61,099 bases of DNA, filler included, from Basidiobolus ranarum (GCA_040143965.1; 7 parts of 7 records of this genome joined end to end with filler, not necessarily neighbours in it); one strand, 5' to 3'; shown: positions 15,312 to 47,730, counted from the first letter of the whole stretch. Notes: generated by a model from the sequence alone, not told the origin. Made by a program: numbers and translations.

Positions 15312-16512
15312 AGCAATAAAAGAAATAAACAAAGCTACTTCGGCGAAAGGAGCAAACGGATATTCGAAGACATCAAAGTATGGTGAAAATTTCTGATTTG
15401 AAAGATGGGTGGATGGAAATTTTTGTCGAAAGTTTAAAAAAAAAATAGCCCATCAGAATTAGCGCTACAATATTCAGCATCGTTGTCACTAGTAATACTC
15501 GTAAAGTTGTTTAAGTTTGATTTTGAAATAATAATCTATATAAACTGGAAAATACATTTATGATGAGGGTTTTATATTTTACTTTATATCATTACACTAC
15601 TGCGTTAGACTAACAGTCGTGTTTATCATGAATGCCGTGAACGCATATCTTCGTTGGTCAAGCTTCAACAATATACGATTAGTTCATTACCAGCTTTCTT
15701 ACAATGAATAATGACCAGACCACTGTAATTTAATGGTGACTAATTTATAAGCATAACACCAACAACTGGATGTACATTTGCTTTTATTGTTTGGTTGGGA
15801 AACTTAGAAAACATGACCTTACTGATGGTGCTCTTACCGGTCTTTGGTGAATTAAAAAGGGTAGAAAGTTGTTCAATATTCATATATGTCATGATAATTA
15901 CAATTTATGGTTTCTCTTGTTGTCGAAGGTAAACATACACATGTGTCGGTATTTTACAGTATTAAGCATATAAAAATCAGAAAAATAACCTTTCCTGACG
16001 GTTTCCCAGGTAGGCATGTTTTCAGTTATTACTCCACATAACTCTAACCCGGCCTTTGGCACTATTAAGAAATTTATCTAGTTTTCAAGAACATCCAAAC
16101 CAAACTCAAGTTGACTTACATCCTTCGAATAAAAGAGAAGGATACTTACAATAAACAACCACATATTATACCTCCGCAGTACAATAAATGGTGATTCAAC
16201 GAGTTGAGAGAAACCAGGCCTATTAAGTTAGCTAATAGTAGCGTATTGATTACCAAAAAAATAGATCATTAAACTACTGCTTCATGTTGTTGATAAAAAA
16301 CAACATATAAAATAAATTCGAACACAAAAATAAAAAATGGGCCCATATTATTATAATGGAGCTTCATTAAGCTAGGTAATTTCTTTCATTACGTTGATCC
16401 GGGGGCTGCTAAATCGCCCCAACCTTTTTTTTTTTCTTCAACATAGACCATATAAAAGCAGTTTTTCCAATTATCTTCATCTCATCGTTTGATCGATTCA
16501 TATACGTTCATC

Positions 16513-17424
16513 ATGTCTTCTGCCACTGATAACAAGCAACATCTTTCCATCGTCATTTGTGGTCACGTCGATTCCGGTAAGTCTACCACTACCGGTCGTC
16601 TTCTCTTCGAACTCGGTGGTATCCCCGAGCGTGAGATGGACAAGTTGAAGCAAGAAGCCGAACGTCTTGGTAAATCTTCCTTCGCTTTCGCTTTCTATAT
16701 GGATCGTCAAAAGGATGAACGTGAACGTGGTGTCACCATTTCCTGCACCACCAAGGAATTCTTCACCGAGAAGTGGCATTACACCATCATTGATGCTCCC
16801 GGACACAGAGATTTCATCAAGAACATGATTTCCGGAGCCGCTCAAGCTGATGTTGCCCTTCTTATGGTCCCCGCCGATGGTAATTTCACCACCGCTATCC
16901 AAAAGGGTGACCACAAGGCCGGAGATATCCAAGGTCAAACTCGCCAACACGCTCGTCTTCTTAACCTTCTCGGTGTTAAGCAACTTATCATCGGTGTTAA
17001 CAAGATGGATTCCGATACCGCTGGTTACAAGGAAGACCGTTATGTTGAAATCCGTGATGAGATGCAAAACATGTTGATCAAGGTCGGATGGAAGAAGGAT
17101 TTCGTTGAACAATCCGTTCCCGTTATCCCTATCTCCGGATGGCAAGGTGATAACTTGTTGACCAAGTCTGCTAAGATGCCTTGGTGGAAGGGTATGGATG
17201 TTATCAACCAAGTTGGTGACAAGATCCACATTGATACTCTTCTCAACGCTTTGAACGAGATGGTTGTCCTCCCCACTCGTAACACCGAAGCTGCCATGCG
17301 TCTCCCCGTTTCCGGTATCTACAAGATCAAGGGTGTCGGAGATGTCGTTGCCGGACGTGTCGAACAAGGTACCGTTACCCCTAACACTGAAGTTATCTTC
17401 CTTCCTACCCACACCGCTGCCAAC
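16513..17424 (+). CDS. efl: Elongation factor-like GTPase EFL (not canonical eEF1A), truncated by gap
   Basis: HLSIVICGHVDSGKSTTTGRLLFELGGIPEREMDKLK, SSFAFAFYMDRQKDERERGVTISCTTKEFFT and VPADGNFTTAIQKGDHKAGDIQGQTRQHA are EFL-diagnostic. Strong codon bias; TATAAAA at 16451. Confidence 0.95.
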
Positions 17425-18824
17425 NNNNNNNNNNNNNNNNNNNNNNNNNNNNNNNNNNNNNNNNNNNNTTAATTAATTAANNNNNNNNNNNNNNNNNNNN
17501 NNNNNNNNNNNNNNNNNNNNNNNNTAGTATATTTTAAAGGGATTATAATATTGACATTGAGTACCAGGAAATTTCATCGTTGTCCACAAAAGAATCCGAT
17601 TTTGGAAGCAGAAAATCAGCTGGCCCAAATTGGAATAGAGTTGGGCGGAGTGAATCTTGTTTAGAAGTTCTCGACGTGTATAACAGCCGCGGGAATCTTG
17701 ACTACCAAGTTCATAGCCAAGCAAATATATCTTCTCTCCCTACCGATTCATGTCTATCGGACCGCTGATAATACCAAATTAGTGTCTGATTATAGCGTAG
17801 TTGAAGCGATCGGCCTAAATGGTATACTCTGCGTAAATTGGGCGTATTGGCTGCCACGAACTGTAGCCCCTGTAGTAAACCACTAAAGTATATCAAGGTT
17901 AGAGATTGCATAATACCCGCTGCGAGCATAGAAAGGAGTTTCTTTTGGGTTTACGTGTGGTTTTCGATTTGTCTCAAGACAATGAATAGTGAACGGGGTG
18001 GAGATACCTCATTATTGTACATCATGACAAATCATTGTGTAATGCTGTAATAGATCTTAAACAATATTTGACTGAATTGTTTGTAGACTTTGTATCTGAT
18101 GAAATGAACAAGTGAATTGACGGGCAACGAGAGAACCCGAATGCCAACATGTAAGGGATAGACGTGGGACATTAACGCGATGCAGAAGAAGCACAATGTT
18201 GCTGAGGGTGTCTGTGCATGGAGGTGATTGATAAAGCATGAACGGTTGAAAATTTCAACAGTTGTATATTTAGGAATCCCGCAAACAAACACCGAATAGA
18301 AATGAGCCATTCTTAGCACTACGTATTAAACCCATCTGGATCTTACAACCTGATAGTGTAAGGTGAGTGAGACAAGGTTTTTACGCATTCCATGCTCTGG
18401 AGTGCATTAACTATTGGGTCACTTGTGATATGATCGCGATCTGTGTGATGGAATTCGAGAAATAAGACTGGAAAGCAGACAGGAGGCTTGATCAATAGGT
18501 TGGTAATAATAATATCAATTAGAATATTAATAGTAGTTTAAAAAGAACTTAATTAACGCCAGGGGAGTGTAATGCATCCTAATTGGTGCACTACATCTAA
18601 TTATATTACAACTTGGACTTATTCTATTTCTCTACAGTCATTTTCACTTGTACCAAATTCGGCAGCCAGATTCCAACAGAAATCTAAATAAGCGGTCTAA
18701 ACCTCTGTTGTCGCCTCATTTTCTTGATGCCATTCGTATTCATACTTATTTGCTGATATCCGACTAGAGCCTCTTTCTTTACAACGTCTTACCACTTCAC
18801 ACGGTATAGAGCAGTCATACAAAA

Positions 18825-26170: not shown

Positions 26171-27904
26171 NNNNNNNNNNNNNNNNNNNNNNNNNNNNNN
26201 NNNNNNNNNNNNNNTTAATTAATTAANNNNNNNNNNNNNNNNNNNNNNNNNNNNNNNNNNNNNNNNNNNNTTCCAATTGTACGTATGGCTAGTCACGCAC
26301 TTTTTGAATTTCTTTAATGCCATTTACTAGCTATTCTAGTTCACATATTTCTACGTACGGTGTGCGCTTGAATTTGTTATTGTTATTTCCCGAGTGTTGG
26401 CTCTACAGGTGCGCCATATTCAATCATATTCGTGTTGTGGCAAATACAACTGCATTTCCAACTACGTGTTATTTACTATGTGGTGGCTGAATCTCAACGA
26501 TAATTTGTGATTCAGTTTCAACTGACGTACGTTACACGCCTTAAAATAGATGCTTTTTATCGTGGCCATGGCCCATGTTTGTTACCTGTTAGTCGAGTGT
26601 AAATGCCATTTCATGGAACCATTTGCAAGCGCACCTTTCCTTCAAATTCTACTTTCGATGGTTTGTTGATTCAGGTGAAAAGAAATGCAACTAGAATTAA
26701 GTTGAATGCGTACTAGGTAAGGCTACCTCAAGAGACACTATGCCTTCTTGATGAAACACTAATATGAGTGGTAGATATTTAGCAACTGTATAAGGTATTT
26801 GATGAGAGTATGATTTCTCTCTCGGTAGATATCTTAAATATTGTAGAAGCCTTATTTTTCATGTGAAACAATATTCTTTGCAAACAATGTAGATGGTGTC
26901 TTGTTGAGCTTGTATTCTTGCTTTGTACCTCTGTCCAGTATCTAAAAGTATCGCACCTCACTGTGATGAAAATCACCGATTGAAAATATGTAGGCATCTT
27001 GGAGGTATTTATTACAGTCAAGTAGGGAATTTGATGGTTAAATATAGTGAGCGGGTGTTTAGTGCACTAACAATTGCTCCAGTTGATATAGAATTTACGC
27101 GAGACCATATCTGTGAAATGATACTGCATAGATGTACAAGAATAGGTAAATCATAATAATATTTCAGTGGTAGTAATATATTGCGTATCACAGCTGAGTG
27201 CCCTTCCTGTCATTAGTAGTCGCATTGTTGACTGCTTTACGAATAATAACAATCGAACCTTGAAAACTGGTTTTAAACTTCACAGCATGAAACTTTACAT
27301 CACTGAAACCATCAGAGGTTCCTTACTTCCCTTTTCAGTATTTCTTTTGTATGCGCCCTGGGGCTTATCTACTCTTGGAATTTCTCTTCTTTGCGTGCAT
27401 AGACAAGTGAGCCAGAGAAGGCTTGCTCTACCTGAACGAAAGGATCGCACAATGATGCTTATAATGAGTGTATTCGCTTGCCCGAGTTTCAAAATATCTG
27501 CTCCTACTGAAGATACGGAGACTAAACGGAACAACTGAAGATCAAGATAGGCATTTGCAATGCTATAAAGAGAAAGTCTGCATAAATGGGATTAAAATAC
27601 CTTTTGTAGTATGATCAATGACATCATTCGATTTCAGGCAACGTACTGCCAAGATAAAGTATTATATGAAACATACGTATTACCACTAGTTCTTGCGCCA
27701 CAAATATTCTAGCGAGGGTTAAATCTTCTGAAATGCTGTTAATGTGATACAAACTACCATTTACACCTTTTGGCTATCAGCGTTTTGTAACGAACGCCGC
27801 AGTTTAATGCTTACAAAACTATAAATAGTCCCCATATCCTATTCTCTGCTACTCACATTCCTTTAACAATAATTCTCTTTTTATTTATTGATCAAAGGAG
27901 TAAA

Positions 27905-30900
27905 ATGCCCTTCGTTTCTGCTTTAAAAGAAAGTTTTGCAACTGCACCAATTCAAGACCGAGAGGCCATTGTCCAAAAACTAGCTACGGCTAATACTGAT
28001 GACGCAAATTACTACCAAGGACTTGTAATTCTGCAAAAAATCTATGACGAACTAATGAAACAAGAAGAGCCCACCAAAGCTCGGAAGCCAACTTCCATTG
28101 AAAGTGATCTTTCAAACGAGATGCAAAAACTTTTAAAGAATATCCCAGCCCATAGTGAAAGATATATTGAACTCAACACTCGTTTTCATCTTTTGATTTA
28201 TCCCATTGAAACTTTAAAATCAGTCGAATTTATCAAAAAGGGTTTATATATAGACTTGCTAACCCAAAAGCAAGTGGAAAAAGAGGAAAACCATGGTACC
28301 ACTACTACAGCCTCCACTTTGGACAACAATCTATTTAGCGGATTCAATATTTTGAAAAACAGCTTCGATCAATATCAGTTGAATGGGGATCTCGATGTTG
28401 ATGTTTTGGCGTTTCCTGAAATAAAAACTGCTATTCTTGACAAGAACTTATTGTCTGATGACGAAGAAGTCGCTCTTTTGAAAAAACTTTTCTTACATCC
28501 AACCGAGAAGCTTTTAGGCAGTAACATTTTGGATCGTTTGAGTCGACTTTGGAAATTACAACATAATGAAGAACACAAGCAGTCGAATTCGTGGCGTTTG
28601 CAGGATTTACCATTTTACACATTTACTCTGTCACAAATGGATCAATTGATTGAAAATATACCAAATATTGTACTTTTGTATGAAAATTTTATTCGCACGT
28701 ATCTCGAAAAATTAGTACCAGCTCCTTACTACAGTAGCTACTCCAATGGCGATTCGATTTCTTTTTGGGATGACGATGAGAACATTTTGAATGATTATTT
28801 GAAACGTCTGGAAGCTTTTGTTCAGAAGTTACCTCCTATTTACTTTCTACTAAAGTCTGCTGTGAAGTTTCACCAACTACGCGTCGATATTGTGCGACAG
28901 GATTTCCAAGAAATTAACTTGATTCAGTTAGTATTGAAATTTATTATAGATTTATAATATATTGACTTCTTTTGTTAATAGGTATTTAGAGGGCGCATCT
29001 GATAAGTCTATTGCAGCATCTACTCACATTTCCAATGTATTTTCATTCAATAAGCAAAACAATACCGGATTCGACAACACCAATGGTATCACTGCAAAGA
29101 CTTGTATTGATATTCCTCTTTTGGGTTCTTGTGAAATCCCGGAAACAGATAAACTACAGGTTGTACAAGAATATCTCACAGGCTTGATTTCTCAAGGAAA
29201 GTTCACAACCAACATCGAATCTCTCGGTGCCTATATGGATTATCATGATGTCTTGAAGCCTCTTTATGCAAAAATCATGTTAACCATATCTCCAGAAATT
29301 CAACAATCTTGGGCCACAATGCTGGGATCCTCACAGTATGAACGTTTGGTAGCTGAGTCCTCGGTTACATTTACACCTTCCACATTAAATGCATCTGTCA
29401 AGAGAAAACCTGGAGACTCCATACGTCTTTCTATTAGAACAAAGAATATTCAACGTCTCGCTATCCGTGTATTTCAAATCAACACAGAAAATTACTGTCG
29501 TGTTCATATCAACAGTGATGCGAGAACCATTGCTGACAAGAATAACAAAATCGATCTTGACGGTCTCTGTCCTACCTGGGAAAAGGACATCGATTTTAGC
29601 TCCGAGCCTGCAATTCGAGTCAAAACAAGCGATTTTACTTTTGGCAGTGAAGGCTTTGCTCCCGAACTTTTCGAAGGACGTGGTCTTTGGGTGATTGAGT
29701 TTGTTGGTGGTCAAAATCAATGCAGAGCTATCATACAGAAGGTAATAAGAAGATAATGGATTTTCAACTATTAGCAAAGGCATGATACTAAAGTATCTTT
29801 CTCTATAGGGCTACCTTAGACATGTAATCCAGGAAACTATAGCTGGACATGTCGTTAGAGTATTGGATGAAACTGGGTTGTCTCTTGAAAACGCAAAGAT
29901 CTGGTGCGATAACCAATATTATCAGGTAATGTATACCTACTTCATGATTAGTTGTATATGCATTACTCACCATCGTTCTTTTCTTTCTATCCATTACATA
30001 TTAGGCTGACGAATCCAACAATATCCTAATACCATATTTACCATTTAATGGTGATGCTAAAATGAATAAGATGTTATTAATATCAAAAGTAGACGATTTT
30101 TGTGAGCCAGCAAGCTTTTATCAATTGGCCGAAGAATACAGATTGGAGGCCGATTTCTATGTAAATCCTGAGATGACTTCATTCAACAAAAAGTCTACAG
30201 TAAGTAACATTCCTCTATTGATACTGATGTGGAAGGCATACTCAATTCTTTTATGTAGGTCGTTGTCAACCCAAGATTGACCATGAATGGTATCTCCATC
30301 CCACTTTCTCTTATAGAGAAGATGTCTTTACTTGTTGAATGTATGAACGTTGATGGTGTGACCAATAGCACTACTTGTCAAAATATCGGCAAATACCCGA
30401 GTTCCATCCATTTTGAGTTCATGGTACCTGATCGTTGTAAGTGATTTCTAAATTTACATAAATCCTCATTAGATACTAACCTTCTGTACATACAATAGTG
30501 ACGAATCTTGAGTTCTCTCTTCAAGCCAAAATCAAAACACTGAATGATACTTTGAAAACAATTGATGTGAAACATAGTATCCAGTATAGTTCACCTGTTG
30601 ATCACACTGGAGTACCTGCAAGCGTTCATTTGAAGAAAGCTGTAGACGACAACTATTTCATCTATGCTTTTGGAAAGAACGGGGAGCCCAAGAAGGACTA
30701 TGAAGTATCGCTCAAGTTGAAGCACGCATACATTCAATATCGTCAGGTTGAAGTTATTTTGAAAACCAATTGTGAGGGCATCATTGAATTAGGCAAATTA
30801 GCGGGTATTCAGTGGATCGAGTATTCCAACTCCTCTGGTGCATACAAGCAGTGGTTAATCAACCATAATAAACAAAGTCTCTTGCCTCCTGCTATTTGTG

Positions 30901-33900
30901 TATCCACTAACACCGCTTTTAAACTTTCTTGCCCTTCACCCTCAACATCCGAATCTCTCTTTTCGTTGTACAAAATTGGTGTAAGAGAGTATGATCTAAT
31001 TTTATTTATTCTGAATCCAATCTTCAGTACTAACCTTGCCGTGTAAAATGCTAGGATGCTCATTGAAAATTTCTCTGATCGCATTGAAAAGAAGGATTCC
31101 TATATTGTTATTTCTGGCCTACCTGAGGGGGAATATATGCTTTACACTGCCTCTGTCTCTGAAGGAACAAATCAGATCAAGTGCACTGTTATTGAAGGTC
31201 AAATTGATTCTGTTGAGAGCCAAGCGACACCCGGTGAGACTAGTAAGAAGGAACATTTTTGGTCTGATTGGATTATTGGTAACAACAGCTACGCCAAGCA
31301 AAATGGTATCGTGTTGCATCGACCTTTGGATATATCTGATATTTCTGTATCAGAGAGGAATGATGTGACTATCCAATTACAAAACTGGTCATCAAAGTCA
31401 TTTGTGGTTATCACCACAAGTACTTTTGTACCTACTAGCTCAGAATCTTTGGCCATACTTATGAATAAGCGTTCGTTGCCAAGAACTCTTGCACAAGAAA
31501 ACAGAGTTATATCAGACTCCAAGTCATTGTTTCTGGATGATAAAAGATTAGGTGAAGAATATCAATACGTTTTAAATCGCGCCCGTGCTGAAAAATGGGT
31601 TGGTAGTAATTTAACCAAGCCTACCTTATTGATGTATCCCAAGGTAAATTGCTCTACGACTCTTATAATGAAATGTTCAAACCTATTTTAACCGTTCTCT
31701 CGCTGATAGAAAAATGCTTCCACTAGTTCTGATTCAAGATATCTCCAAAATGAAATAGCCAAAAAAAGAAAATTAATGACCAGATACGGAGGTGGAGAAC
31801 GCGCTTTTCTTGCCGACGCAATGTGTTATAGAAAGATGGGTGACATAGGAAGATTAACCGAGTCTAGCTTAGCATTTTTGGATCATTATTCTCCCATTTT
31901 GATTCTGCCAGTATCAGCTGATGGAACTATCTCTGTTGAACGTCAATCACTTGGACTTGGTAACTTGGTACAAGTTGTTGCAATCTCTGGTGAGCAAGTA
32001 GTTTACAAGAACACTGTCTTGTCTTCAAGCGATTTCTCTGAATTTAAATACAACGATCTTCGTCAAAAATCTAGTAGCAACAAGGCTCTTATTCGCTCTA
32101 AAGTTGTCAAGAATCTTTTACCCAAAGAAAAGTTGGTCATCAACACTAATGAGTATGAGACAATCGATAGTTTTGAAAAGTTATTCGATACCATCAAGAC
32201 CATTTCCACTGTGGGTGATTCCTTGGCTAACGAGTTTGATTATTTAAAGACTTGGCCTGGTCTCGATGCTGAAAAGAAACTAAAACTGCACGAAGAAAAA
32301 GTATGCCATGAGCTAAACTTTTGGCTCAAGAAAAAAGATACCCTATTCTTTAAGCAGTTTGTTGAACCTGCAATTAAGGTAAGAATGACAAGCATTTACA
32401 TTTCTAAAATATCATATGCTCATCATTCCTTTCACTCTATTTAGAGTAAAGTTCAAAAAACATTCATGGATCTTTACCTTGTTGACGGAGACCTTTCTGA
32501 ATACAGTAGCAATATTTACAAGTACGCACAGCTAAATACAGTTGAGAAGTCTCTATTGGCAACGAGGAGCTCAAATGAATTTGCCAAGACTGTTCTCCGA
32601 GTTTTCAAGGAAGCTTTCGATGATAAAAAAATTGATGAGAGATCTGATGCTATTTTCGATTCGATTCTCGCAGGTAGTGCACTTGCCTTACCCCAAAATC
32701 TCGATAGCATTGAAGCTTATGAGAACGTTGAGGTGGCACCTCCTCCAGCTCATTCATATGGATTCGGTGCTCCAAGTGGTGCAAGTTTATTTGGATATGG
32801 ATCATCCTCTGCACCTCCTCCTCCTCAACTACGTAGCTCTGCCTATCAACAATCACCTGGTTATAGCGCTCAATCGCCTGCTTACTCAGCTGCATCAGCA
32901 TTTGGTCAATCTGATGGTCTAGTCGACGACGATGACGACGAAGAACTTCAAGAAGCTACTAATGAATTAAGAGAAAAAGCTAAACAACGACAGAAGAAAG
33001 TTGCATATGAATTTGCTAAACAAACAAGTGAATGGATTGAAACTGGCTATTATAATAGTCAAGATACCATTCCCGTTAAAAAATTCTGGATTGATTACCT
33101 CGAATATCACTTGGAGAAGAGCGGTGATGAACAACAAGATGTATTTCTATCCGAAAATTTTATGTATTCTCTCAGTAACTTGACTGAAATCATGTATGTA
33201 TTAAGTTTGATCGATTTGCCATTTGAAACAGAAACAAATTGGACAAAGGAGGTAACAGAGACAAACTTGGAACCTGACAATGGTGCCATACAACTGGCTA
33301 TATGTGCATCACCTACTCATCCTTTAATGGTCTTTTACCGCACTTTAACCGAAAGCACAACACCTTTTTCACCGCAGAGTGGTAATAGTGACAACAATTT
33401 AATGCTTGGACAAGAACTGTTTTTGTATGACAAGAATACGCCCATTGATTCGGATGAATGTATCAAGATCAATCCATTGTCTAGTCACCTCGATCCACTA
33501 GTGGAGTATGGCAATCATGTCATTATCAGCAATGTATCGGGTAAAACGTTGACATGTCAAGTTACTGTTCAAGTTCCCACTGGTTCTGTGCCCTGTGCAG
33601 ATACCCCATATTGCAAATCCAGAACAATTTCTATTGATCCTTATGCCACTTGGCATAAAGTTGTCGGCTCCTTTTACTTTCCTTCTGCGGGTGAATATAC
33701 CATCGTGCCAGTTACTGTATCCACCTTATCCGGTGATAAACTTCTTGGAATGATCGAAGCTATCGATGTTATCGTTGTTGCAAAGTCATCTTCCGAAGGC
33801 AATATTAGCTCTAACGATGCTGAAAGTCAATCACTCTCATTAGCTTCTTGGCCCACACTTGCTAATAGTGGCTCTGCTGAGAAAGTGATCTCCTTCCTTG

Positions 33901-34914
33901 AAAATTACAAAAAGTTGGACCGACTCGATTTTAGTATGATTGGATGGAGAATGAAAGATGGTTCATTTGCTCGTCAAGTATTTAATACACTGTCGTTGGG
34001 TCGTTGCTTCTTTTCTCAAGAACTTTGGAAATACGGTGTCTACCATCAATTTGATGATATTATCAGAGATTTGTTGAATTTCGATAGCAGCAACATATTA
34101 GCCAACACCGGACAAGTATTTGAGTCACCTTTAGTCAGTAAAAAGAGAGCAGATCACACTCAAATTTATGACTACTACCCACTCTTGAATGCTCGTGCTC
34201 ATCCGTTGAAATCTACTTCTCATGAAATTTTGAATGCTCAATTCTATGAAAGATATGATAAATTCCTCAGCTACTTGAGCCAGCAATCCAGTGAGCCTTC
34301 CAACACTGATTTGGTCATCTTGACGCTATACTTAATTTTGCAAGATCGTATTGGAGATGCTCAAACTACGTTCTCTCGCATCCAACTAGGCTCAAGCGAT
34401 ATCGATTGCCAAGTACAAACTGATTATCTGGAGGCTTACTTGAAGACACGGATACCTGTTGTTGACCAAATGGAACAGCAAATCCAGGACCTTGAGTCAG
34501 TCAAGGAAATTGCAAGCAAATACAAAGATTTTGGTATATTGAAATGGCGCAAATTATTTACGGAGTTGTACGATTTTGGTTGTGAAGTAGAGCAAGGTGA
34601 TTCCACCATCACAGGTGACCCAGCTCGTCGTAGCACAAGAATTCAATCTGAGCCTATCCTTGAGTTTGAAATCCACCAAGAACAGCAAGAATTGATTGTT
34701 CAATATGCCAATTTGAAATCCGTCGATGTCAAATACTACGAAATGAATATTGAAGTCATGTTCTCTACGAACCCCTTTATGAATGATCGTGCTACTTCTA
34801 TGATGAGTAATGAGAACTTTACCTGGGTTAAGCCTAACTACACTTCAAGAGTCGATTTCCCTGAAACACAAAAGACTTCAGTTACCCTTGAGCCAAATAT
34901 GGAGGAGGATTATA
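27905..34914 (+). CDS. Giant uncharacterised protein (>2160 aa, 9 exons, 3' truncated by gap)
   Basis: Exons 27905-28926, 28982-29741, 29809-29925, 30005-30199, 30259-30436, 30499-30988, 31055-31643, 31710-32378 and 32445-34914 join in frame with GT-AG introns. TATAAATA at 27820. No signal peptide. Confidence 0.85.
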
Positions 34915-35054
34915 NNNNNNNNNNNNNNNNNNNNNNNNNNNNNNNNNNNNNNNNNNNNTTAATTAATTAANNNNNNNNNNNNNNNNNNNNNNNNNNNNNN
35001 NNNNNNNNNNNNNNCTATAAAATCAGAGGCAAAAAAAAAGGAATACCTAAAATA

Positions 35055-35238: not shown

Positions 35239-36848
35239 AATAATACATAACATACTAAATATAACATATGACTTGTGTTATTTTTTTTGATTTTGGCAAA
35301 TTAGAAGATGGTCTCAAGGGATTTTGATACTAAATAATAATCAGAAAATATATTAAGCAGAAAAATACTTAAAAATAAGCAAATTGCCAAAATTGTATTT
35401 TAAACAAAAGTGTAAAAATGAAAATTAGAAATAAAAAGGATTGGATTTGAAATGGAAATATGTAATAAAAGGAATAAAGATGGAAAAATGGGAAATGGGG
35501 AAAGGAAAAACTTATATTTTTATGGGAAAAAGGATGGTACACCTATATATAAATAAATAATCCTATAAAATATATAAAATAGTTTTGTCCCCCTATATAT
35601 ATCCCATCTGCAGAGAGAAGAAGATTACATTTTTCACCAAATCTGTACCAACTAATAAGAAAGTAAAGAAGTTGCACAAGAAGGTGTCTACCATCAAAGA
35701 TCTTAGCTTAAGATATAACCACAACAAAGAAACATTACATCTGCAATACTCCCTTCTTTCTTTTGATACTGTGATGACTGTATCCCCCAGATGCCTTCTT
35801 TACATCCTTACCCTTACTAGAACATATATACCCTAACCCTTTGAACTATAGTGTCTATCAAATGACAATGATTCAAGAAGGGATAAGATCAGATGTATTT
35901 ACAAAATGAGCTGTTTTTAAAACTAATGCCATTAGGGCATATCAAAACTCTTGTAGAGATTATGGCACTAACCTTTTGTGTACCTAAAGCTCCTTGATAC
36001 TTGTTATCTCTAAGATATTAAAGTCATTTATCTGATGTATACCAAGTGACATATTTTACAATAAAAAATGTAGGCTCAAAATTTGAGTGCTGTGAGAATA
36101 TTGCATGTTAAACAATTGGAATGCTATTTGGTGTGGCCTTATCAGCATCTCCTGCCTAGCAAAGTAGGTTACCTACTGAGAATTGCAACTAGCGAATGTA
36201 GATATGCTCACTAATTCACCCATAGTATAGGCCTGTATTATAGACAACATTTGAATTGATTCCACTCTATTATGGTTGAAAGAATAGCTCATAGCTCTCT
36301 CGGATATCCAGTATAATGGTATTCTGTACATGAATATGACTCTTTGCTGGTTTGAATTCGATGCATATCGATCGCATGGTGAAACTTAGTGAATGTATCT
36401 ACTAAATATAAAATGAATGAAACACAAGCATTAAACAATACGTTGCAGTAAAGTTGAAGTGCTGGCGCTGGCGCTGGTGCAATACTCTACCTTAATAGTA
36501 GTTAACATCGGATCAGTAGGAATAAAGAGGAGATGATAGAGTCTTGACTTTAACATAGGTGTTCAGGTGCTGACCGAGCGACCTTGGCCAAGAATGAAAA
36601 ATTGGTCAGACGTTTCTATGGAACTTAGAAAGTACCAATCGTGCTGATTGATGACACACACTCAGTGGCTATGTCACCGGAATATACGTAACGTTTGAAG
36701 TGATAATCACTTTGCATGAAATCTTGAGCACTTCTTGGGCGTCTATAAATTTGGAACGAAGTTGTAGAAGAAAAAGTATTAACCTGGAATATCAAGCAAT
36801 ATCACGTAATCCAACTTCTCCACTTTAAATTAAATCATAAACATAACC

Positions 36849-37355
36849 ATGAGATTCGCACTTGTAACTGTTGCTTTAGTCGTCTGTATGGCTCCAGCTT
36901 ATCAAGCTTCCGTCAGTTTGGATGGGAGATGTGGAAATGGGGTTGATTGTCCAACTGGAGCATGTTGCTCCACCTGGGGCTTCTGTGGTACTGGATCTGC
37001 TTACTGTGGTGGTAGCGGAACTAACGGTAATAACAATGCCAATAGTGGTGGTAGTAGTGATAATGGTAATGGCGGTGGTAGCAGTGATGGTAATGGTAAT
37101 AATGATAGCCAACCACCGCATAACGAGCCCAATCCGGATAATTCTCAACCAAGTCCAGCACCGACCCAACAAGGTGGTGATGAAAATAACGCTGGAAGCA
37201 CACCACAGCAACCGATGGCAACAACTCCAGTAGCTGCTAATCCGGAACCAACTCCAAGCAATAATAACAAAGCAAATGGAGGGGAATCTCTTTTCAATCC
37301 GCTCACAGTACTTAGTGGAGTAGCAATTGTATATACTGGATATTGGAATTATTAA
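36849..37355 (+). CDS. Secreted chitin-binding (CBM18/hevein) protein with G/N/P-rich stalk and probable GPI signal
   Basis: Signal peptide; DGRCGNGVDCPTGACCSTWGFCGTGSAYCG; low-complexity stalk; hydrophobic C-terminus. TATAAAT at 36744. Confidence 0.9.
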   Translation: MRFALVTVALVVCMAPAYQASVSLDGRCGNGVDCPTGACCSTWGFCGTGSAYCGGSGTNGNNNANSGGSSDNGNGGGSSDGNGNNDSQPPHNEPNPDNSQPSPAPTQQGGDENNAGSTPQQPMATTPVAANPEPTPSNNNKANGGESLFNPLTVLSGVAIVYTGYWNY

Positions 37356-38938: not shown

Positions 38939-39158
38939 AGGCCGCCACAAACATATATATAGCGTACCAAAACTACAGATTTCCATCAGACTCAACATTT
39001 CAATTGCAACCCGCATTGAATACTACTACAAGGTACACATAAACTACTGTATACGATTAAATGTCTAGCTCTTAAACTAACTTGATTACACTTTTTTTAC
39101 ATGGTACTCTATTCCGCTTTTCTTTCTGTTAATAATCCTGGTTAACCTTCAAAATAGG

Positions 39159-39593
39159 ATGAGTGCTACTTTATCAAATGGCGTATATAGAATTGAGCTT
39201 CCACATGATCAGCTCGTTACACAACCAGAAGGTAGTGAGACTGGTCCAGCTTACCTATTACCTCCGACTGGCAATGCAGGCGAACAAGAATTTGAAATTA
39301 GCGAAAATTCGGATGGCACAGTGAATATTCGAAATATCAAGTCAGGGCATTACCTCAGCAGCGAGAATGAAGTGAATGCTACTATTATCTTGGAAACGCA
39401 ACCAAAGAGTTGGACTCTGACTCCAGGGACTGAACCTTCTACCTATGTTATCCAGCTTCCAGGTGAGCCAGTTGACGGGGAAATCTTAGCTGTTGACATG
39501 TCGCTTTTAAGGATTTTCCCACCAAGACTTGCACTTCGACCATTCAATGAGAGGGATGGGCAACAGCAATTTAAATTTAATCCTCTTCAATAG
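39159..39593 (+). CDS. Cytoplasmic beta-trefoil (ricin-B-like lectin / protease-inhibitor-like) protein, 144 aa
   Basis: LSNGVYRI start, QxW-like repeats (EQEFEI, PKSWTL, QQQFKF) and DGTVNIRNIKSGHYL. No signal peptide. Intronless CDS with a 5'UTR intron 39033-39157 (ag|GTACAC..AATAG|G ATG). Confidence 0.75.
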   Translation: MSATLSNGVYRIELPHDQLVTQPEGSETGPAYLLPPTGNAGEQEFEISENSDGTVNIRNIKSGHYLSSENEVNATIILETQPKSWTLTPGTEPSTYVIQLPGEPVDGEILAVDMSLLRIFPPRLALRPFNERDGQQQFKFNPLQ

Positions 39594-39992: not shown

Positions 39993-42900
39993 CTACAAAG
40001 CAGTTACCGGCTCTACTTGAAGATAGTCGGCGATCTTTGTGACGTACGGCTCAAACATGAGTTCATGATGTTTGGCTTCTATGCTTCGTACGACTACAAT
40101 GGACGAGTATTCTGACCAACCATAGCATGTTTGTTGTCTATCAAGCTCCTCAAGCTCATCCTTTGCATCCGACCCTTTCAACAAGACTATACTGGCGTCT
40201 AATTTCTTGATTGGGGGTTGATATTTTCTCATCAACTGCACATTCTCATGAATCTTTTGCAATATCATCTGGGAGGCTGCTTCTTCTAATTTCCATCCAC
40301 CCGAGACTGATATCATTGTCAAATACTCAAGGGCAGAGTGTTGATTGGAATGTTCCTGCAATCGTCGCCGAGTATGAGGTGCTATCGTATCGATAATGGT
40401 CAGTCTTGATACCTTTTGACCTTGGCACTCGAGTTGACGTGCAATCTCAAAGACAACCAATCCACCGAAAGAGTACCCGTGAAGGCAATAGGGACCTTCA
40501 GGCTGGGCGTTTAGGATTGCCCTCAGATATCTTGTAGCAATCATCTCGATAGAGTCGAATGATTCATCAGTTCCAAGGGTGGGATCGCTGATGGAGTACA
40601 ATGTGCAATGCATGTATTTACCCAAAAGCTCAAAATAGCTAGCTACACCTGTAGCACAGTGTACGATAAACATTGTTGGACCACCTCCCTCAGAGATCAA
40701 AGTCAAGCAATCATCATCATTCTCTTTGATGATATCGCCAACGCATCTATATTTGAATTGAGGAGAATGAGCAACACTTCCTGATGGTGCCATATAGAGT
40801 GGGGAGCTATCAAGTGTCTGGAGTGCCTCTTTTGAAATGGTCTTGATGCCATTAATTAATTCGACTTCCCACAAATCAAGCCAAGATTGGATCTGTGATT
40901 CGGAGTACATAATGTCACTGTAGGTTATGCGAACTTCAAGTTGGTCTCCTACATGTTGAGCAAGGCAATCAATAACTTGATGACGTCTCCACTTAGGAGG
41001 TACGCCACCCAAATCAAATTTGTATTCAGAATCGGACGGTATGGGGAGTAAGTAAGAACTAGCGATATCGTGACTCACAATGTTAGGCATATACCCCAGG
41101 GTAAGTTCCGGTGGGCCCTTCTCAAAATGCGGGGCGGTTTTACCGTTCATGTATTTCAAAAGACCGTAATTCATTTCATTCCCGCGGATATGGCGTTGCT
41201 GAGAGATGGTTTGACGAATAGCATCTTCTAACCGCTGACTCTTTCCCACTTCGATAACAATTGGATATAGGTTAGTAAAACATCCTACTGTCTTTGAAAT
41301 ATCGACTTTATCATCTCCAAATTGGCGTCCATGCGACTCTAATGTGACAGAGAGAGCGTCCCTCACGAATGTACAGCAATAGGAATACGCTAGCGAAGCG
41401 ACTAGCAAATCTATAATTTCTACATTCGCAGATGGCCCACAATATCTTTCGGCCAATTTAGTGAAGTAAGGGTCGAGCTTGAAGGACATTGAGCGGGCAT
41501 TTTCCGTAGTATTATTCGTAAGTAATCCAATATCCGTGATAATAGGTTGAGTTGCTGGTTGTGTAGGCCACGAGCTCATGTCCAACGTTTGTGCATAGTC
41601 ATACAGCAGTTGATTCCATTGCATGTAAGATATTGACTTGCGATCGGGGGTATTTCCTTGGAGCAGTAATCCTAGGTCTTCCCATATAGAGCCCCATGAC
41701 GATAGGTCGATGATCAAGTGGTGAACTGCCATGAAAATCAACTGCTGGCCATCTGATAGATCATACAATGCGAATTGGAATAGAGGTTTCGACATCAGAT
41801 CAAGACTACTCTGAAGCTCATAAATAGAATCCTTCAACTCTGTTCTGGATTTGACTTGCGTATGATAGACTTCAAATGGAAGCTCTGCAGGTGCGATCAC
41901 TTGTGCTTTCCATAAATTTCCGGAGCGCTCAAAACGGGTACGAAGGATATCATGATTTATGATTAGTTGTAGAACAGCAGACTTCAAGAGAGTCAAGTTT
42001 GTCGGGTACTGCATTTTAAATAGCCAGCTCTGATTAAAATGATTGATATTCTCTTGTTCAAATTCCATAAACATATGCTGGTTGGCAGTAAGGTGGACTT
42101 CACATTGAACTAATTTATCAACAGTGAATCGTCCGACCATAGCACCTCTAGCATTCTGGGCAAGTTGACAGATAGTATGGTTTTTAAGAATACTCTGTAC
42201 CGCGATCTGAATACTATGTTTTCGACATTCAGAAGAAACACGTATGGCCAATATAGAGTCACCACCAAGCGAACGGAAGGAGTGATCGATACTAATGCTA
42301 CTTTGAGGAATGTTGAGGACCTTCGACCAGACTTCTTGAATGAGCAACTGAGTCAAATTTTGAGGCTGTATAATATCATATTTATCAGTCTCGATGAATT
42401 CTCCCGAGGAGGTCGCTACTTTATTACTACCCTCCTTTCCATTCGTCGAAATTCTCATAATATCTTCCAGACTTGAGGACGAGAAGAGATCTGACAGTTT
42501 ACGACGATCAATTTTATCACTTGAATTGATCGGAAGGGTGTTGAGTGGTAACCAAATATTCGGAATCATATAAGGTGGTAGGCGTTTGCCCACGAGTACT
42601 TTCAGCTCTTCCATGTACCCAGACACCGAAGTAACTTGTGATCCTGATAGCAATTCCGGTTCAGCGACTCTACTCTCTACATCACAGAATGTCAAAAAGG
42701 CCACCAAGGACTTACGATTCACTGTCTGATCGGTAGCCAAAGCCAATACGCATGCCCTTGACACCTGCGAGTGGTAATGAAGCGCGTGCTCTATCTCATC
42801 CAGCTCAATTCGTAATCCATTTAACTTGATTTGATTGTCCATTCTACCAACTATTCTAACTGTTCCATCTTCATTAAAAAGCGCCAGATCACCGGTACGA

Positions 42901-43656
42901 TAGATTCTGTTAGCAGTGTCGAAATCACTAGTGACAAATGCCATTTCTGTGAGGTCAGGTCGGTTCAGATAACCTCGAGCGAGTTGAGGACCAGAGACAC
43001 AAAGTTCGCCAACCACACCTAGCGGGACAGGTTGCAAATTGGATCCTACAATCAAGATATTGTTGCCATCTATTGGTTTCCCGATATTATTGCACATCGT
43101 ATTTTCAGTCACATTACAATTAGCTAGAATAGCCACTGCAGCTTCTGTAGGTCCATATGCATTACAGAGTTGAACATATGGTGACCACAAATCTTGAACT
43201 GTGGTAGTCATCATTTCGCCACCCAACGCTACTCGCTTCACACTTGGCACTTCGAGGGGATCGATCAGTGTTGCGACGGAAGGAGTGAGCATAAGTGCTG
43301 TCACATTCATTATATTTATGCACTTTTCCAAATCAGAGAGCAGGTTCTCTTTTGAGGCAAGTGCAACACAAGCACCCGAAGCTAATGTGCAAAATATCTC
43401 AATTACAGATGCATCAAACGTATATTTGGCAAATTGCAAGACTGAATCCATAGAGGTAATGCCCCAAAGACTATAGAATGCTTGGACAAAGCTCGACACA
43501 CTTCGGTGCTCCATCATGACACCCTTAGGCATTCCAGTAGAGCCGGATGTGTAGATTACATAGCACAGATTTGAACTACTCAAATTGTTCACTTGAGGGT
43601 TCTCGATGCTATTCTGGTCAAGTGATAGATTATCAGTGTCAAGCAGAACAACGACT
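39993..43656 (-). CDS. Non-ribosomal peptide synthetase, terminal part A-T-E-TE (5' truncated by gap)
   Basis: A: YTSGSTGMPKG, FDAS, NAYGPTE, GPQLARGY, YRTGDL, RIELDEIE, KIDR. T: LGGDSI. E: HHLIIDLSSW, LESHGRQ, SKTVGCFTNLYP. TE: GYSFGG, HHELM. Frame is open to the gap and intronless. Confidence 0.93.
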
Positions 43657-43756
43657 NNNNNNNNNNNNNNNNNNNNNNNNNNNNNNNNNNNNNNNNNNNN
43701 TTAATTAATTAANNNNNNNNNNNNNNNNNNNNNNNNNNNNNNNNNNNNNNNNNNNN

Positions 43757-46112: not shown

Positions 46113-47730
46113 TTATTGATAAATATGCAAAATACAGTTGGGTCTACTCTATGGAAAGAATTGAAGGAGCTCTTTCAATCATTAAAGACTTTAAAACACA
46201 TGTAGAGACTGCAACTGGAACTAAGATCAATAAAATACATCTTGATGATGGTGGTGAATGTACTACAACACTGTTTAAGCACTTTTGCAAAGTGCACAGA
46301 ATTAAGCAAGAAACTACTGCCCCTATTTACATCACCTGAAAGAGCAACAGGAACATAATAGAAATGGCAAGATATATGATAAATGCTCACAGTTCATCTC
46401 ATTACTTTTGGGCAGAATCTGCTACTACAGCTAGATATTTGAATAACAGGTGTTTTACAAGAAGTGTGTCTAACTTCACATCATATCTAGCTTCGTTTTG
46501 ACTTAAAACTGAGGTAAAACATTTGGGTATCTTTGGATTTGATGCTTATGTAAAAATTATGACCAAAAATTAGTGTAAACATGATGCAAAAAGTAAGAAA
46601 TGCATATTTCTGGGTCATAATATTCAAGCTAAGGCCTACAGACTCTATGATACCAAATTTTCCAAGTTAATCAAGTGCAGGGATGTTTTGTTGAATGAAA
46701 ATGGAAACTTTTCTCCCAAAATAAAGTTGTGGTACTTTTGTCCCAAAACAGAAGTTTAAATTGAATTTGAAATAGCCCTGATTACGATACAAGTATCAGG
46801 CTTTAATTGATAATCAAACTTGGATTTTAACCAACTTACCTGATGATAGAAATCCATTGGCTGCCAATAGGTGTTTACAGTTAAATACAACTGCAATGGC
46901 GATATAGAACAAGACAAGGCCAGACTAGTGTCCAAGACTATTCCCATTCACCAGGAGTTGATTATACAGAATCATTTGCTCCTATAGCAAAGTTCACTTC
47001 AATAGACTGATTTAGCAATTTTAGCCAAATATCATTTTATTTTGTATCACATGGATGTAGAAACTGCTTTACTGAATGGCTGAGGAGATCTATATGGACC
47101 AGCCAGATGGATTGATGAACTTAACAAACCCTAAAATGTTTGCAGACTTTGGAAAACACTCTTTGGCTTACAATAATCTCCATGAGCTTTGAATAGCTAG
47201 ATAAAAGCTTGTTTGGAAGTACCCAAATTCTGAAGAATAATGCTGACAACAATATCTACCGCAGGCCATATAAGACAAAACCAGTTCTATTAGTCTAATA
47301 TGTAGATGACCTTATTGTAGCAGCAAATGACTTTGATAGTTTGGAGAGAACCAAATGTAGCTTATCTGCCATATTCAAAATGACTGATCTTGGTTACCAT
47401 GTGTACCATCTAGGAATGCAAGTTAAGATAGATATAACTTCCAAAACACTAACTTTAAATAAGTCTAAGTGTGAACTATATGTACCAAAGAAGTTTAAAA
47501 TGGAAGAATATAATCCAATATCTATCTCAATGGAGATAAATCTTTCCTTGCCCAAAAATGGCCTAAATCAGACATTTTTAGATTCAAGTGAAAGCCAGAA
47601 ATTTCCTTATGAAGCTGTGGTCAAATGTTTGATGTATATAATGGTTGGAACATGGCCAGATTTTGTATATTCTGTGCAAGTTACATGCCAATATCTTCAA
47701 AATTATGGCTGTGATCAAATCATAGCAGTT
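46113..47730 (+). mobile_element. Second degenerate copia fragment (integrase core to RT)
   Basis: ISFIDKYAKYSWVY, IHLDDGGEC, YFWAES, KKCIFLG, KARLV, LYVDDL, FKMTDLG, VGTWPD. Confidence 0.85.

What the first reader, a model, noticed from the sequence alone, without database searches (positions are those of the whole stretch)
27905..34914. Giant (>2160 aa) signal-less orphan protein, possibly macroglobulin-like, of a patchy bacterial/protist family
Seen: nine exons in one frame with conserved-looking blocks IDLDGL, GRGLWVIEFVGG..RAIIQKG, AGHVVRVLDETG..AKIW..Y.AD..ILIPY, FEFMVPDRL, LGEEYQYVLNR, CHELNFWLKKKD..FF, KTFMDLYL, YYPLLNARAH, YLILQDRI and YYEMNIEVMFSTNPF. Recollection, not searched: these blocks match ~2000-aa hypothetical proteins of Planctomycetes and scattered eukaryotes. 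Inference: the alternating beta-rich stretches resemble MG domains of bacterial alpha-2-macroglobulins, followed by helical regions. There is no CGEQ thioester motif in the visible part and no signal peptide, suggesting an uncharacterised cytoplasmic cage, coat or trap protein.
Basis: partly seen in the sequence, partly recalled or inferred. Interest (0 to 1): 0.7.

Follow-up and report, generated by a model that had tools for sequence, protein, structure and literature searches.

The report
Mucor-type CAGE cage-protein gene
This is a nearly complete gene for the giant subunit of the recently described hollow 'CAGE' protein complex, and its sequence says it comes from a Mucor-like mould rather than from the fungus the assembly is named after.

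Summary
Window 27905-34914 (+) carries a nine-exon gene that gives 2163 aa without a stop, has no signal peptide, and is cut off at the end of an 8644-bp contig (about 150 aa are missing). My splice model is letter for letter the public record 'K7432_011754, partial [Basidiobolus ranarum]'.

The protein has no Pfam domain but is not an orphan. One search found 1373 cluster representatives, mostly ~2100-aa proteins of Planctomycetota and other PVC bacteria with N-terminal leaders. Mucorales, Mortierella-type fungi and a dictyostelid also have it.

Size, lack of known domains, domain order, taxonomic spread and the bacterial-only leaders all match the CAGE family (bioRxiv 10.1101/2025.09.22.677704). 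That family forms a ~1 MDa hollow homotetramer of unknown function.

AlphaFold models of both halves have alpha-2-macroglobulin/complement proteins as top structural matches, through MG-like beta-sandwich arrays. There is no thioester motif, no A2M Pfam hit and no clear TED, so it resembles A2M but is not a member.

The sequence nests inside Mucoraceae (AU p 3e-49). A control gene on a neighbouring contig is 93% identical to Basidiobolus meristosporus. The contig is therefore most likely a Mucor-like contaminant, less likely a recent fungal transfer. The kind is known, so interest is modest.

The parts
26271..34914 (.). The contig that carries the finding (8644 bp), bounded by N44-TTAATTAATTAA-N44 spacers
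   Evidence: Its length equals the 'longest_contig 8644' given for P0001.
26271..27904 (.). 1.6 kb upstream with no convincing coding frame, so the contig holds only this gene
   Evidence: the longest stop-to-stop frame is 130 aa and no gene was recognised. It was not searched further.
27905..28926 (+). Exon 1 (aa 1-340 plus 2 nt). The start ATG is conserved as MPF[IV]S in Mucorales orthologues.
28982..29741 (+). Exon 2, with the blocks IDLDGL and GRGLWVIEFVGG..RAIIQKG
29809..29925 (+). Exon 3
30005..30199 (+). Exon 4
30259..30436 (+). Exon 5
30499..30988 (+). Exon 6
31055..31643 (+). Exon 7
31710..32378 (+). Exon 8
32445..34914 (+). Exon 9 (823 aa plus 1 nt). It runs off the contig end, so the gene is 3'-partial.
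27905..29354 (+). N-terminal all-helical region, aa 1-465 (introns included in the span). aa 141-465 were modelled; aa 1-140 were not.
   Evidence: helices up to model residue 325. It corresponds to helical domains 1-2 (1-443) of Tetrahymena CAGE1 in the preprint.
29361..31607 (+). Array of about six to seven MG/Ig-like beta-sandwich domains, aa 468-1105
31533..31640 (+). Strongly conserved segment, aa 1081-1116 (LGEEYQYVLNR...)
   Evidence: mean pairwise identity 0.55. Y1092, R1096, G1104 and P1110 are invariant.
31641..31862 (+). Hypervariable loop of near-constant length, predicted disordered, aa 1117-1168
   Evidence: length 43-62 (median 50) and identity 0.17 in 60 proteins; pLDDT under 50 at model residues 965-1026.
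32172..32714 (+). Helical domain with the invariant CHELNFW..KKD..FF and KTFMDLYL blocks, aa 1272-1430
32715..32999 (+). Low-complexity, predicted disordered insert (Pro/Ser/Gly/Tyr-rich, then acidic), aa 1431-1525, variable in length across the family
   Evidence: pLDDT 31-40; length 28-147.
33390..33785 (+). MG-like beta-sandwich, aa 1656-1787
33849..34595 (+). Helical region with YYPLLNARAH and YLILQDRI, aa 1809-2057
34656..34913 (+). Start of the C-terminal beta domain (YYEMNIEVMFSTNPF), cut by the contig end

Best explanation
The region is a real, spliced, 3'-truncated gene for the ~2300-aa subunit of the CAGE complex.

Shown here:
- the gene structure;
- collinear, full-length homology to a very large Pfam-less family of ~2100-2500-aa proteins (PVC bacteria, Mucoromycota fungi, a dictyostelid);
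- a fold made of an N-terminal helical region, an array of MG-like beta-sandwiches, helical domains, a further MG-like sandwich, a helical region and a C-terminal beta domain;
- no thioester motif and no signal peptide.

Inferred from the preprint on this family: four copies assemble with D2 symmetry into a hollow ~22 x 16 x 12 nm shell with slit-like openings around a ~600 nm3 cavity. The shell sits in the cytosol in eukaryotes and outside the cytoplasm in bacteria. No catalytic motif is known. My best guess at how it works is a passive container or trap that holds protein clients in its cavity, as tetrameric alpha-2-macroglobulin does, but without a thioester.

Origin: the sequence is of Mucoraceae descent, in one clade with Mucor mucedo, Thamnidium and Helicostylum. 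It sits alone on a short contig of a Basidiobolus ranarum assembly, so the contig is most probably DNA of a contaminating Mucor-like fungus.

My odds: CAGE-family membership about 0.9; Mucoraceae descent about 0.97; contaminant rather than integrated transfer about 0.6-0.65.
For: Gene. Nine exons, eight GT..AG introns of 55-79 nt, 2163 codons and no stop. The product is identical to P0001.

Family size and shape.
- 33 hits among 7998 scored candidates: 15 named Mucorales proteins at 34-64% identity, Modicella, and named Kiritimatiellia, Verrucomicrobiales and Planctomycetota MAG proteins at 25-28%.
- 1373 cluster representatives at E<=1e-3 and 533 at <=1e-30, mostly 2000-2400 aa.
- A profile search added Cavenderia fasciculata DFA_06970 (2497 aa, 1763 bits), Mortierella polycephala, Apophysomyces and Rhizopus.
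- The alignment is collinear over the whole length.

No known domain. 0 of 9 exon translations and 0 of 1 full-length bacterial relative reach a Pfam cut-off.

Leaders. By eye, most bacterial relatives have a hydrophobic leader before the conserved IGF.E.FALA..R motif, and the fungal ones start at that motif.

Match to the preprint 10.1101/2025.09.22.677704 (I read Results, Discussion, one Methods section and Data availability). It describes a ~2200-aa subunit with no Pfam or SCOP domain and 15 domains: helical 1-443, beta sandwiches 444-1195, helical 1244-1559, beta 1606-1738, helical 1751-2011, beta 2014-2215. It reports A2M as the top Foldseek hit for two sandwiches. More than 2/3 of homologues are bacterial, chiefly Planctomycetota and Verrucomicrobiota. 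Mucor, Mortierella and Dictyostelium are named as carriers. Signal peptides occur in bacteria only.

My models have the same order at nearly the same positions: helical to 465, beta 468-1105 and 1181-1245, helical 1272-1430 and 1506-1595, beta 1606-1787, helical 1809-2057, beta from 2078.

Origin.
- The protein sits in a 100%-supported clade with M. mucedo, Thamnidium and Helicostylum, inside Mucorales.
- Holding the other 10 Mucorales rows as a clade without it costs 283.8 lnL units, p-AU 3e-49.
- The PheRS exon of the second contig is 93% identical to B. meristosporus and 76-79% to Mucorales. The database therefore holds B. meristosporus, yet no B. meristosporus relative of the giant protein appeared.
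- There is no other gene on the contig and no DNA shared with the other six contigs.
Against: - I could not align the protein directly to an experimentally defined CAGE subunit (Tetrahymena I7MLD7 or Dictyostelium AbpF). No tool gave me those sequences. PDB entries 11KS and 11KT named in the preprint did not appear in either PDB copy. The preprint's Table S2 list of homologues is a supplement I could not open. The link therefore rests on matching descriptions and on a dictyostelid relative whose orthology to AbpF is assumed.
- Tetramer formation was not tested for this protein.
- The container or trap function is a guess. The preprint itself leaves function open and saw no substrate density.
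- Contamination is not shown. GC, GC3 and tetranucleotide use do not set this contig apart from the other six (r 0.86-0.93). Intron length is the same as in the genuine Basidiobolus PheRS gene. Read coverage could not be examined.
- The nearest sequenced relative is only 61-68% identical, so the donor or contaminant species is unsequenced.
- Both word-indexed searches scored only the ~8000 candidates sharing most words. The absence of a B. meristosporus relative is therefore suggestive, not proof.
- The AU group was named after I had seen the tree.
Confidence: 0.58

Rival explanations
1. Same CAGE-family gene, but truly integrated in the Basidiobolus ranarum genome after a recent fungus-to-fungus transfer from a Mucoraceae donor.
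For: The phylogenetic nesting fits transfer as well as contamination. Composition and intron size are indistinguishable from the other contigs of the window. The sequence is not close to any sequenced Mucor (61-68% identity), which leaves room for divergence after transfer. From my own knowledge, not checked here: Basidiobolus is known for many acquired genes, though those reported are of bacterial origin.
Against: Nothing links the contig to Basidiobolus DNA. It carries no second gene and shares no repeat with the other contigs. Mucoraceae and Basidiobolus have similar AT-rich composition and short introns, so the lack of a compositional difference says little. Contamination of a fragmented assembly needs fewer assumptions than transfer of a 7-kb, eight-intron gene.
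Confidence: 0.3
2. It is a true, highly diverged member of the alpha-2-macroglobulin/thioester-protein family. It would be a protease trap with an MG ring, a bait region and a TED-like domain that has lost the thioester.
For: - For both models, the top Foldseek matches are C3, C4, C5, CD109, A2ML1, TEP1 and bacterial A2M. Best E is 2e-6 for the C-terminal model and 1e-10 for the N-terminal one, with 550-1000 alignment columns.
- A hypervariable disordered loop of constant length follows the sandwich array.
- The C-terminal domain profile matches the C-terminus of an A2M-domain protein, P0306, at 93% probability.
- The bacterial members appear to be exported (hydrophobic N-terminal leaders, by eye). 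Bacterial A2Ms are exported too; that is my recollection, not checked here.
Against: - No A2M-family Pfam model is matched.
- A family profile finds no A2M or complement chain in the PDB sequences.
- CGEQ is in 0 of 185 proteins.
- The first ~465 aa are all-helical (aa 141-465 modelled). As I recall, solved A2M proteins have no such region; I did not check this.
- The neighbours in 57 bacterial loci show no conserved partner.
Confidence: 0.05
3. It is an old, vertically inherited Basidiobolus gene that merely looks Mucor-like.
For: The family is old in fungi: Mortierella-type and Mucorales sequences form one clade that follows the accepted taxonomy. The preprint also reports chytrid members.
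Against: The sequence is nested deep inside Mucoraceae with 100% support, and the alternative is rejected (p-AU 3e-49). No relative from B. meristosporus or any other Zoopagomycota appeared, while a housekeeping control found B. meristosporus at once.
Confidence: 0.02

Closest known systems
CAGE complex subunits: Tetrahymena thermophila CAGE1-3 and Dictyostelium discoideum AbpF (McCafferty et al., bioRxiv 10.1101/2025.09.22.677704)
   Same: Same size class (1890-2418 aa there; 2163+ here and about 2300 in orthologues). No Pfam domain. Same order of helical and beta-sandwich domains at nearly the same positions. A2M is the best structural match for the sandwiches. Same taxonomic spread (Planctomycetota and Verrucomicrobiota majority, Mucor, Mortierella, dictyostelids). 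Signal peptides in bacteria only.
   Different: There is no direct alignment to the solved proteins. This copy lacks its last ~150 aa. It carries a ~95-aa low-complexity insert (aa 1431-1525) that varies from 28 to 147 aa across the family. Assembly into a tetramer was not tested here.
Mucorales orthologues annotated as hypothetical proteins, for example Helicostylum pulchrum EDC94DRAFT_524762, Mucor mucedo EV154DRAFT_462599, and Thamnidium elegans INT48_003690 and INT48_002047
   Same: 61-68% identity over the whole length, the same MPF[IV]S start, and one 100%-supported clade.
   Different: They lie on contigs of 68-313 kb in Mucorales genomes. This one lies alone on an 8.6-kb contig of an assembly named for a fungus of another phylum.
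Alpha-2-macroglobulin / complement C3-C5 / TEP / CD109 superfamily, including bacterial A2M (E. coli ECAM, Salmonella A2M)
   Same: Strings of MG-like beta-sandwiches give the best structural matches for both halves. Both are giant proteins. Human A2M and CAGE are both hollow homotetramers (preprint). The bacterial CAGE-like proteins appear to be exported, and I recall the same of bacterial A2Ms.
   Different: No sequence-level similarity to A2M Pfam models or to PDB chains. No thioester motif. No demonstrable TED or CUB. The large helical N-terminal region has, as far as I recall, no A2M counterpart. Global superposition is poor (TM about 0.1).

Membership tests
CAGE complex family | Significant sequence similarity to an experimentally defined subunit (Tetrahymena CAGE1 I7MLD7 or Dictyostelium AbpF) | tested here: inconclusive
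   Neither sequence could be obtained with the tools, and PDB 11KS/11KT are absent from both PDB copies. Indirect support: the family profile hits the dictyostelid Cavenderia fasciculata DFA_06970 at 1763 bits. Its orthology to AbpF is assumed, not shown.
CAGE complex family | Subunit of about 1900-2400 aa without any Pfam or SCOP domain | tested here: met
   2163 aa plus about 150 missing. 0 of 9 exon translations and 0 of 1 full-length bacterial relative reach a Pfam cut-off.
CAGE complex family | Domain order: helical N-terminus (~1-443), six beta-sandwiches (~444-1195), helical (~1244-1559), beta (~1606-1738), helical (~1751-2011), beta C-terminus | tested here: met
   The AF2 models (pLDDT 80.5 and 71.6) give helical to 465, beta 468-1105 and 1181-1245, helical 1272-1430 and 1506-1595, beta 1606-1787, helical 1809-2057, and beta from 2078. 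The comparison is by position only; no coordinates were superposed.
CAGE complex family | Taxonomic spread: mostly Gram-negative bacteria, above all Planctomycetota and Verrucomicrobiota, plus scattered unicellular eukaryotes including Mucor, Mortierella and dictyostelids | tested here: met
   Nearly all of the 80 loci kept are Planctomycetota. The exceptions are Ozemobacter-type (3), Elusimicrobia (1), Bacteroidales (1) and one unassigned.
CAGE complex family | Bacterial members carry an N-terminal signal peptide and eukaryotic members do not | tested here: met
   By eye only; no predictor was run. Hydrophobic leaders precede the conserved motif in most bacterial proteins and in most of 52 full-length ORFs. 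All fungal proteins start at the motif.
CAGE complex family | Homotetrameric hollow shell of about 1 MDa | not testable with these tools
   Four copies of 2163 aa exceed the 1000-residue limit of the complex predictor. No job was sent.
Alpha-2-macroglobulin / TEP family | Match to the family's sequence models (Pfam MG2, A2M, A2M_BRD, bMG domains, TED_complement) | tested here: not met
   No such hit at E<=1 for the nine exon translations, nor at E<=1e-3 for a full-length bacterial relative. A family profile finds no A2M or complement chain among PDB sequences at E<=10.
Alpha-2-macroglobulin / TEP family | Array of MG beta-sandwich domains | tested here: met
Alpha-2-macroglobulin / TEP family | Thioester motif CGEQ in a TED (alpha/alpha toroid) domain | tested here: not met
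   CGEQ is in 0 of 185 family proteins. As I recall, some true A2M/TEP members, such as C5, also lack it, so this alone does not exclude membership.
Alpha-2-macroglobulin / TEP family | TED-like helical domain between MG7/CUB and MG8 | tested here: inconclusive
Alpha-2-macroglobulin / TEP family | Flexible, hypervariable bait region inserted after the first MG domains | tested here: inconclusive
   A disordered loop at aa 1117-1168 has near-constant length (43-62) and 17% mean identity, next to a 55%-identical segment. Whether it is cleaved or acts as bait is unknown.

The most novel reading that the evidence does not exclude
CAGE proteins, this one included, may be remote thioester-less relatives of the alpha-2-macroglobulin/complement superfamily rather than a wholly new fold. 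On this reading an MG-domain array is followed by a hypervariable, disordered, bait-like loop of constant length (aa 1117-1168), and four subunits close into a cage. The complex would then work as a cleavage- or binding-triggered trap for proteins, outside the cytoplasm in PVC bacteria and in the cytosol in eukaryotic microbes. The preprint reports A2M matches for only two sandwiches and calls the fold novel. Here both halves of the protein have A2M/TEP proteins as their best matches, in long collinear alignments.
Probability: 0.15. Interest if true: 0.75.

Novelty: new member of a known kind. Interest (0 to 1): 0.3.

Why it matters
For the scan, a 'giant orphan' can now be given a name. It belongs to a very large family (1373 representatives at 50% identity) whose structure was published as a preprint in 2025 and whose function is still open.

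For genome curation, this is a concrete case of a probable fungus-in-fungus contaminant, or else a rare inter-fungal transfer, in a public Basidiobolus ranarum assembly. I would expect screens aimed at bacterial or animal DNA to miss such a case.

For the family itself, three observations may help anyone who wants to test what CAGE does. Both halves resemble A2M/TEP proteins. A hypervariable loop of constant length sits behind the sandwich array. No conserved gene neighbour was found in 57 bacterial loci.

Tried and rejected
- **Composition as a contamination test.** GC, GC3 and tetranucleotide correlation do not separate the contig from the six others.
- **Intron length.** The genuine Basidiobolus PheRS gene also has introns of about 45-70 nt, so this does not discriminate.
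- **Shared repeats.** There is no blastn match between this contig and the others. That gives no link to Basidiobolus, but it is also no evidence against one.
- **Operon context in bacteria.** Among 57 loci of at least 12 kb, the commonest neighbour groups are sulfatase (9 of 57), DUF1501 (7 of 57) and, in 4 of 57 each, PSD1/PSCyt, PQQ propeller and protein kinase. As I recall, these are simply abundant planctomycete families, so there is no conserved partner.
- **Sequence search of solved structures.** Nothing for exon 9. The family profile gave only a low-complexity match at E 1.2.
- **ESM Atlas.** Only unnamed, mostly Planctomycetota clusters, and no structure search was possible.
- **TED-like toroid.** Not supported.
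- **Missing C-terminus elsewhere in the window.** Not found.
- **Literature.**
  - 'alpha-2-macroglobulin' + 'Planctomycetes' + 'horizontal gene transfer': 0 papers.
  - 'macroglobulin' + 'Mucorales': 26 papers, one of them the CAGE preprint.
  - 'AbpF' + 'Dictyostelium': 4 papers, seen as a listing only.
  - 'Basidiobolus ranarum' + 'genome assembly' + 'contamination': 2 papers. I checked passages of one; those passages say nothing about this assembly. The other I saw as a listing only.
- **Complex prediction.** Not attempted, because the tetramer is far over the size limit and I had no basis for choosing an interface fragment.
- **Supplements of the preprint.** I could not see Table S1 (domain matches) or Table S2 (3,521 homologues). 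They may already list this protein or its Mucor relatives.
Full report
**What is there.** The 61-kb window is not one stretch of genome. It is seven contigs of 8668, 8656, 8646, 8644, 8642, 8628 and 8615 bp, joined by spacers of the form N44-TTAATTAATTAA-N44. The finding lies on the fourth contig (26271-34914).

On the + strand, nine open pieces can be joined by eight GT..AG introns of 55-79 nt. Their donors are of the GTAAGT, GTTAGT or GTATGA type, and two have ACTAAC-type branch sites. The result is one reading of 2163 codons without a stop, starting at the ATG at 27905 and running off the contig at 34914.

The product is identical to a public protein, 'hypothetical protein K7432_011754, partial [Basidiobolus ranarum]', recorded on one contig of 8644 bp. 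The 1.6 kb upstream holds no recognisable gene. About 150 residues are missing and they are not elsewhere in the window.

**Not an orphan.** No Pfam model is matched by any of the nine exon translations or by a full-length bacterial relative. No PDB chain is similar in sequence.

The family is nevertheless very large.
- An exhaustive HMMER search with the last exon gave 1373 cluster representatives at E<=1e-3 and 533 at E<=1e-30, most of them 2000-2400 aa.
- A named search gave 33 hits among 7998 scored candidates: the protein itself, 15 Mucorales proteins (34-64% identity), Modicella, three named PVC-type bacterial MAG proteins (25-28%), and 13 others without a useful name.
Of the 80 loci kept, nearly all are Planctomycetota. 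The exceptions are three Ozemobacter-type MAGs, one Elusimicrobia MAG, one Bacteroidales MAG and one unassigned.
- A full-length profile search added Mortierella polycephala, Apophysomyces, Rhizopus, Pilobolus and the dictyostelid Cavenderia fasciculata (2497 aa, 1763 bits).

Fungal and bacterial proteins align collinearly from end to end. Most bacterial members begin with a hydrophobic leader followed by the motif IGF.E.FALA..R...LIPGT. The fungal ones begin exactly at that motif (by eye, no predictor was run). In 57 bacterial loci of at least 12 kb there is no conserved neighbour. The commonest are sulfatases (9 of 57) and DUF1501 proteins (7 of 57), which I recall as abundant in planctomycetes anyway.

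**Fold.** Two AlphaFold2 models were made with family alignments.
- Residues 141-1340 (47 rows, mean pLDDT 80.5, pTM 0.77) are helical up to residue 465. A run of beta-sandwich domains follows (468-1105), then a disordered loop (1105-1166), further strands, and a helical domain from 1272.
- The last exon, residues 1341-2163 (54 rows, pLDDT 71.6, pTM 0.53), has helices, then a disordered low-complexity insert and a further helical stretch. After these come beta domains (1606-1787), a helical region (1809-2057) and the start of a beta domain.

Foldseek against the PDB puts only complement C3, C4, C5 and CVF, CD109 and TEP1 in the listed rows for the C-terminal model. Best E is 1.9e-6, and 57 hits have E<=1e-3. 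For the N-terminal model it lists C3, CD109, A2ML1, C5, TEP1 and bacterial A2M, with two exceptions in the list. Best E is 1.2e-10, with 269 hits at E<=1e-3. Alignments run over 550-1000 columns but TM-scores are about 0.1.

CGEQ occurs in 0 of 185 family proteins. Membership of the A2M family is not met by sequence models or by the thioester, and a TED is not shown.

[quoted passage not shown] I read its abstract, Results, Discussion, the Methods section on sequence analysis and the Data availability statement. I could not read its supplements.

The preprint describes a ~2200-aa protein with no Pfam or SCOP domain. It is helical at 1-443, has six beta-sandwiches at 444-1195 (two with A2M as top Foldseek hit), is helical at 1244-1559, beta at 1606-1738, helical at 1751-2011 and beta at 2014-2215. 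Four copies form a D2 hollow shell of about 22 x 16 x 12 nm around a cavity of about 600 nm3. This was solved at 5.6 A for Tetrahymena and 3.3 A for Dictyostelium AbpF.

It reports 3,521 BLASTP homologues. More than two thirds are bacterial, chiefly Planctomycetota and Verrucomicrobiota. [quoted passage not shown] Signal peptides are predicted for most bacterial members and are generally absent from the eukaryotic ones. Function is left open; the authors discuss a chaperone or a molecular container.

Every one of these descriptors matches what I had found independently, including domain positions within about 50 residues. I therefore file the protein as a CAGE-family subunit, at about 0.9.

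The gap is that I could not align it directly with the solved proteins. Their sequences were not obtainable, and the PDB entries named (11KS, 11KT) are in neither PDB copy. It is marked as having partly failed a later check, and I use it only as a lead.

**How it most likely works.**
- Shown: the domain architecture, the absence of a leader, and the absence of a thioester or any recognisable catalytic motif.
- Inferred from the preprint: tetramerisation into a cytosolic hollow shell with slit-like openings.
- Guessed: that it holds or traps macromolecular clients.

One feature may bear on this. Directly after a very conserved segment (aa 1081-1116, mean pairwise identity 0.55) comes a loop (aa 1117-1168). 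The loop is predicted disordered, keeps its length (43-62 residues in 60 proteins) and is almost free to vary in sequence (identity 0.17). That is how I recall bait regions of macroglobulins behaving. I offer this as the boldest reading, not as a result.

**Whose gene is it?** In two maximum-likelihood trees the protein sits in a 100%-supported clade with Mucor mucedo, Thamnidium elegans (two copies) and Helicostylum pulchrum, deep inside Mucorales. The fungal clade otherwise follows the accepted taxonomy, with Mortierella-type sequences basal, and the bacteria form their own clade. Forcing the ten other Mucorales rows into a clade without the window's protein costs 283.8 log-likelihood units, p-AU 3e-49 (the group was named after the tree had been seen).

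As a control, the phenylalanyl-tRNA synthetase exon on the second contig of the window is 93% identical to Basidiobolus meristosporus and 76-79% to Mucorales. That contig is therefore genuine Basidiobolus and the database holds its sister species. Even so, neither search for the giant protein returned any Basidiobolus meristosporus or other Zoopagomycota relative (both scored only the roughly 8000 best word-sharing candidates).

The contig carries no second gene and shares no DNA with the others. Composition and intron size do not discriminate, and read depth could not be examined. I put contamination by an unsequenced Mucor-like fungus at about 0.6, a recent fungus-to-fungus transfer at about 0.3, and vertical descent at about 0.02.

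**Verdict.** It is a member of a family already described in a 2025 preprint, in a lineage (Mucor) that the preprint names. Its presence in this assembly is more likely an artefact than biology. Novelty: new member of a known kind. Interest: 0.3. Two things remain of interest: the unresolved function of CAGE, with a possible distant kinship to macroglobulins, and the curation flag on the assembly.

Noticed in passing
window 8669-8768, 17425-17524, 26171-26270, 34915-35014, 43657-43756, 52385-52484: The window is seven separate contigs, in descending length, joined by N44-TTAATTAATTAA-N44 spacers. Neighbouring 'genes' across a spacer are not linked in the genome.
   Followed up: yes
window 39996-43655 (-): An intron-free 1220-aa frame with AMP-binding, PP-binding, Condensation and Thioesterase domains. 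This is the end of a non-ribosomal peptide synthetase, and it runs off its contig.
   Followed up: partly
window 13384-15311 (-): Phenylalanyl-tRNA synthetase alpha gene with several short introns. Its large exon is 93% identical to Basidiobolus meristosporus. It was used as the control for a genuine Basidiobolus contig.
   Followed up: yes
window 16456-17424 (+): A 323-aa frame with an EF-Tu-type GTP-binding domain that runs off the contig end.
   Followed up: no
window 47299-47946 (+): A fragment with a weak copia-type reverse transcriptase match (RVT_2, 28.3 bits, below the cut-off of 31.6) on the sixth contig.
   Followed up: no
window 36834-37352 (+) and 39081-39590 (+): Frames with a chitin-binding (hevein-like) domain and a ricin-B-type lectin domain, on the same contig as the NRPS.
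   Followed up: no
L065:6464-12919 and L065:13267-19605: A Planctomycetota MAG carries two full-length copies of the bacterial relative in tandem. Thamnidium elegans also has two copies.
   Followed up: no
protein P0306 (2515 aa, metagenome), residues 2337-2494: A protein with true A2M-family Pfam domains plus TPRs has a C-terminal stretch that matches the C-terminal beta domain of the CAGE-like family. hhalign gives 93% probability, E 3.4e-7, over 153 columns. The shared motif resembles ...DGYTDLRGRFDY.
   Followed up: partly
window 31641-31862 (+), aa 1117-1168: A hypervariable, constant-length, predicted disordered loop lies directly after the most conserved segment of the beta-sandwich half. 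It is present in fungal and bacterial members alike.
   Followed up: partly
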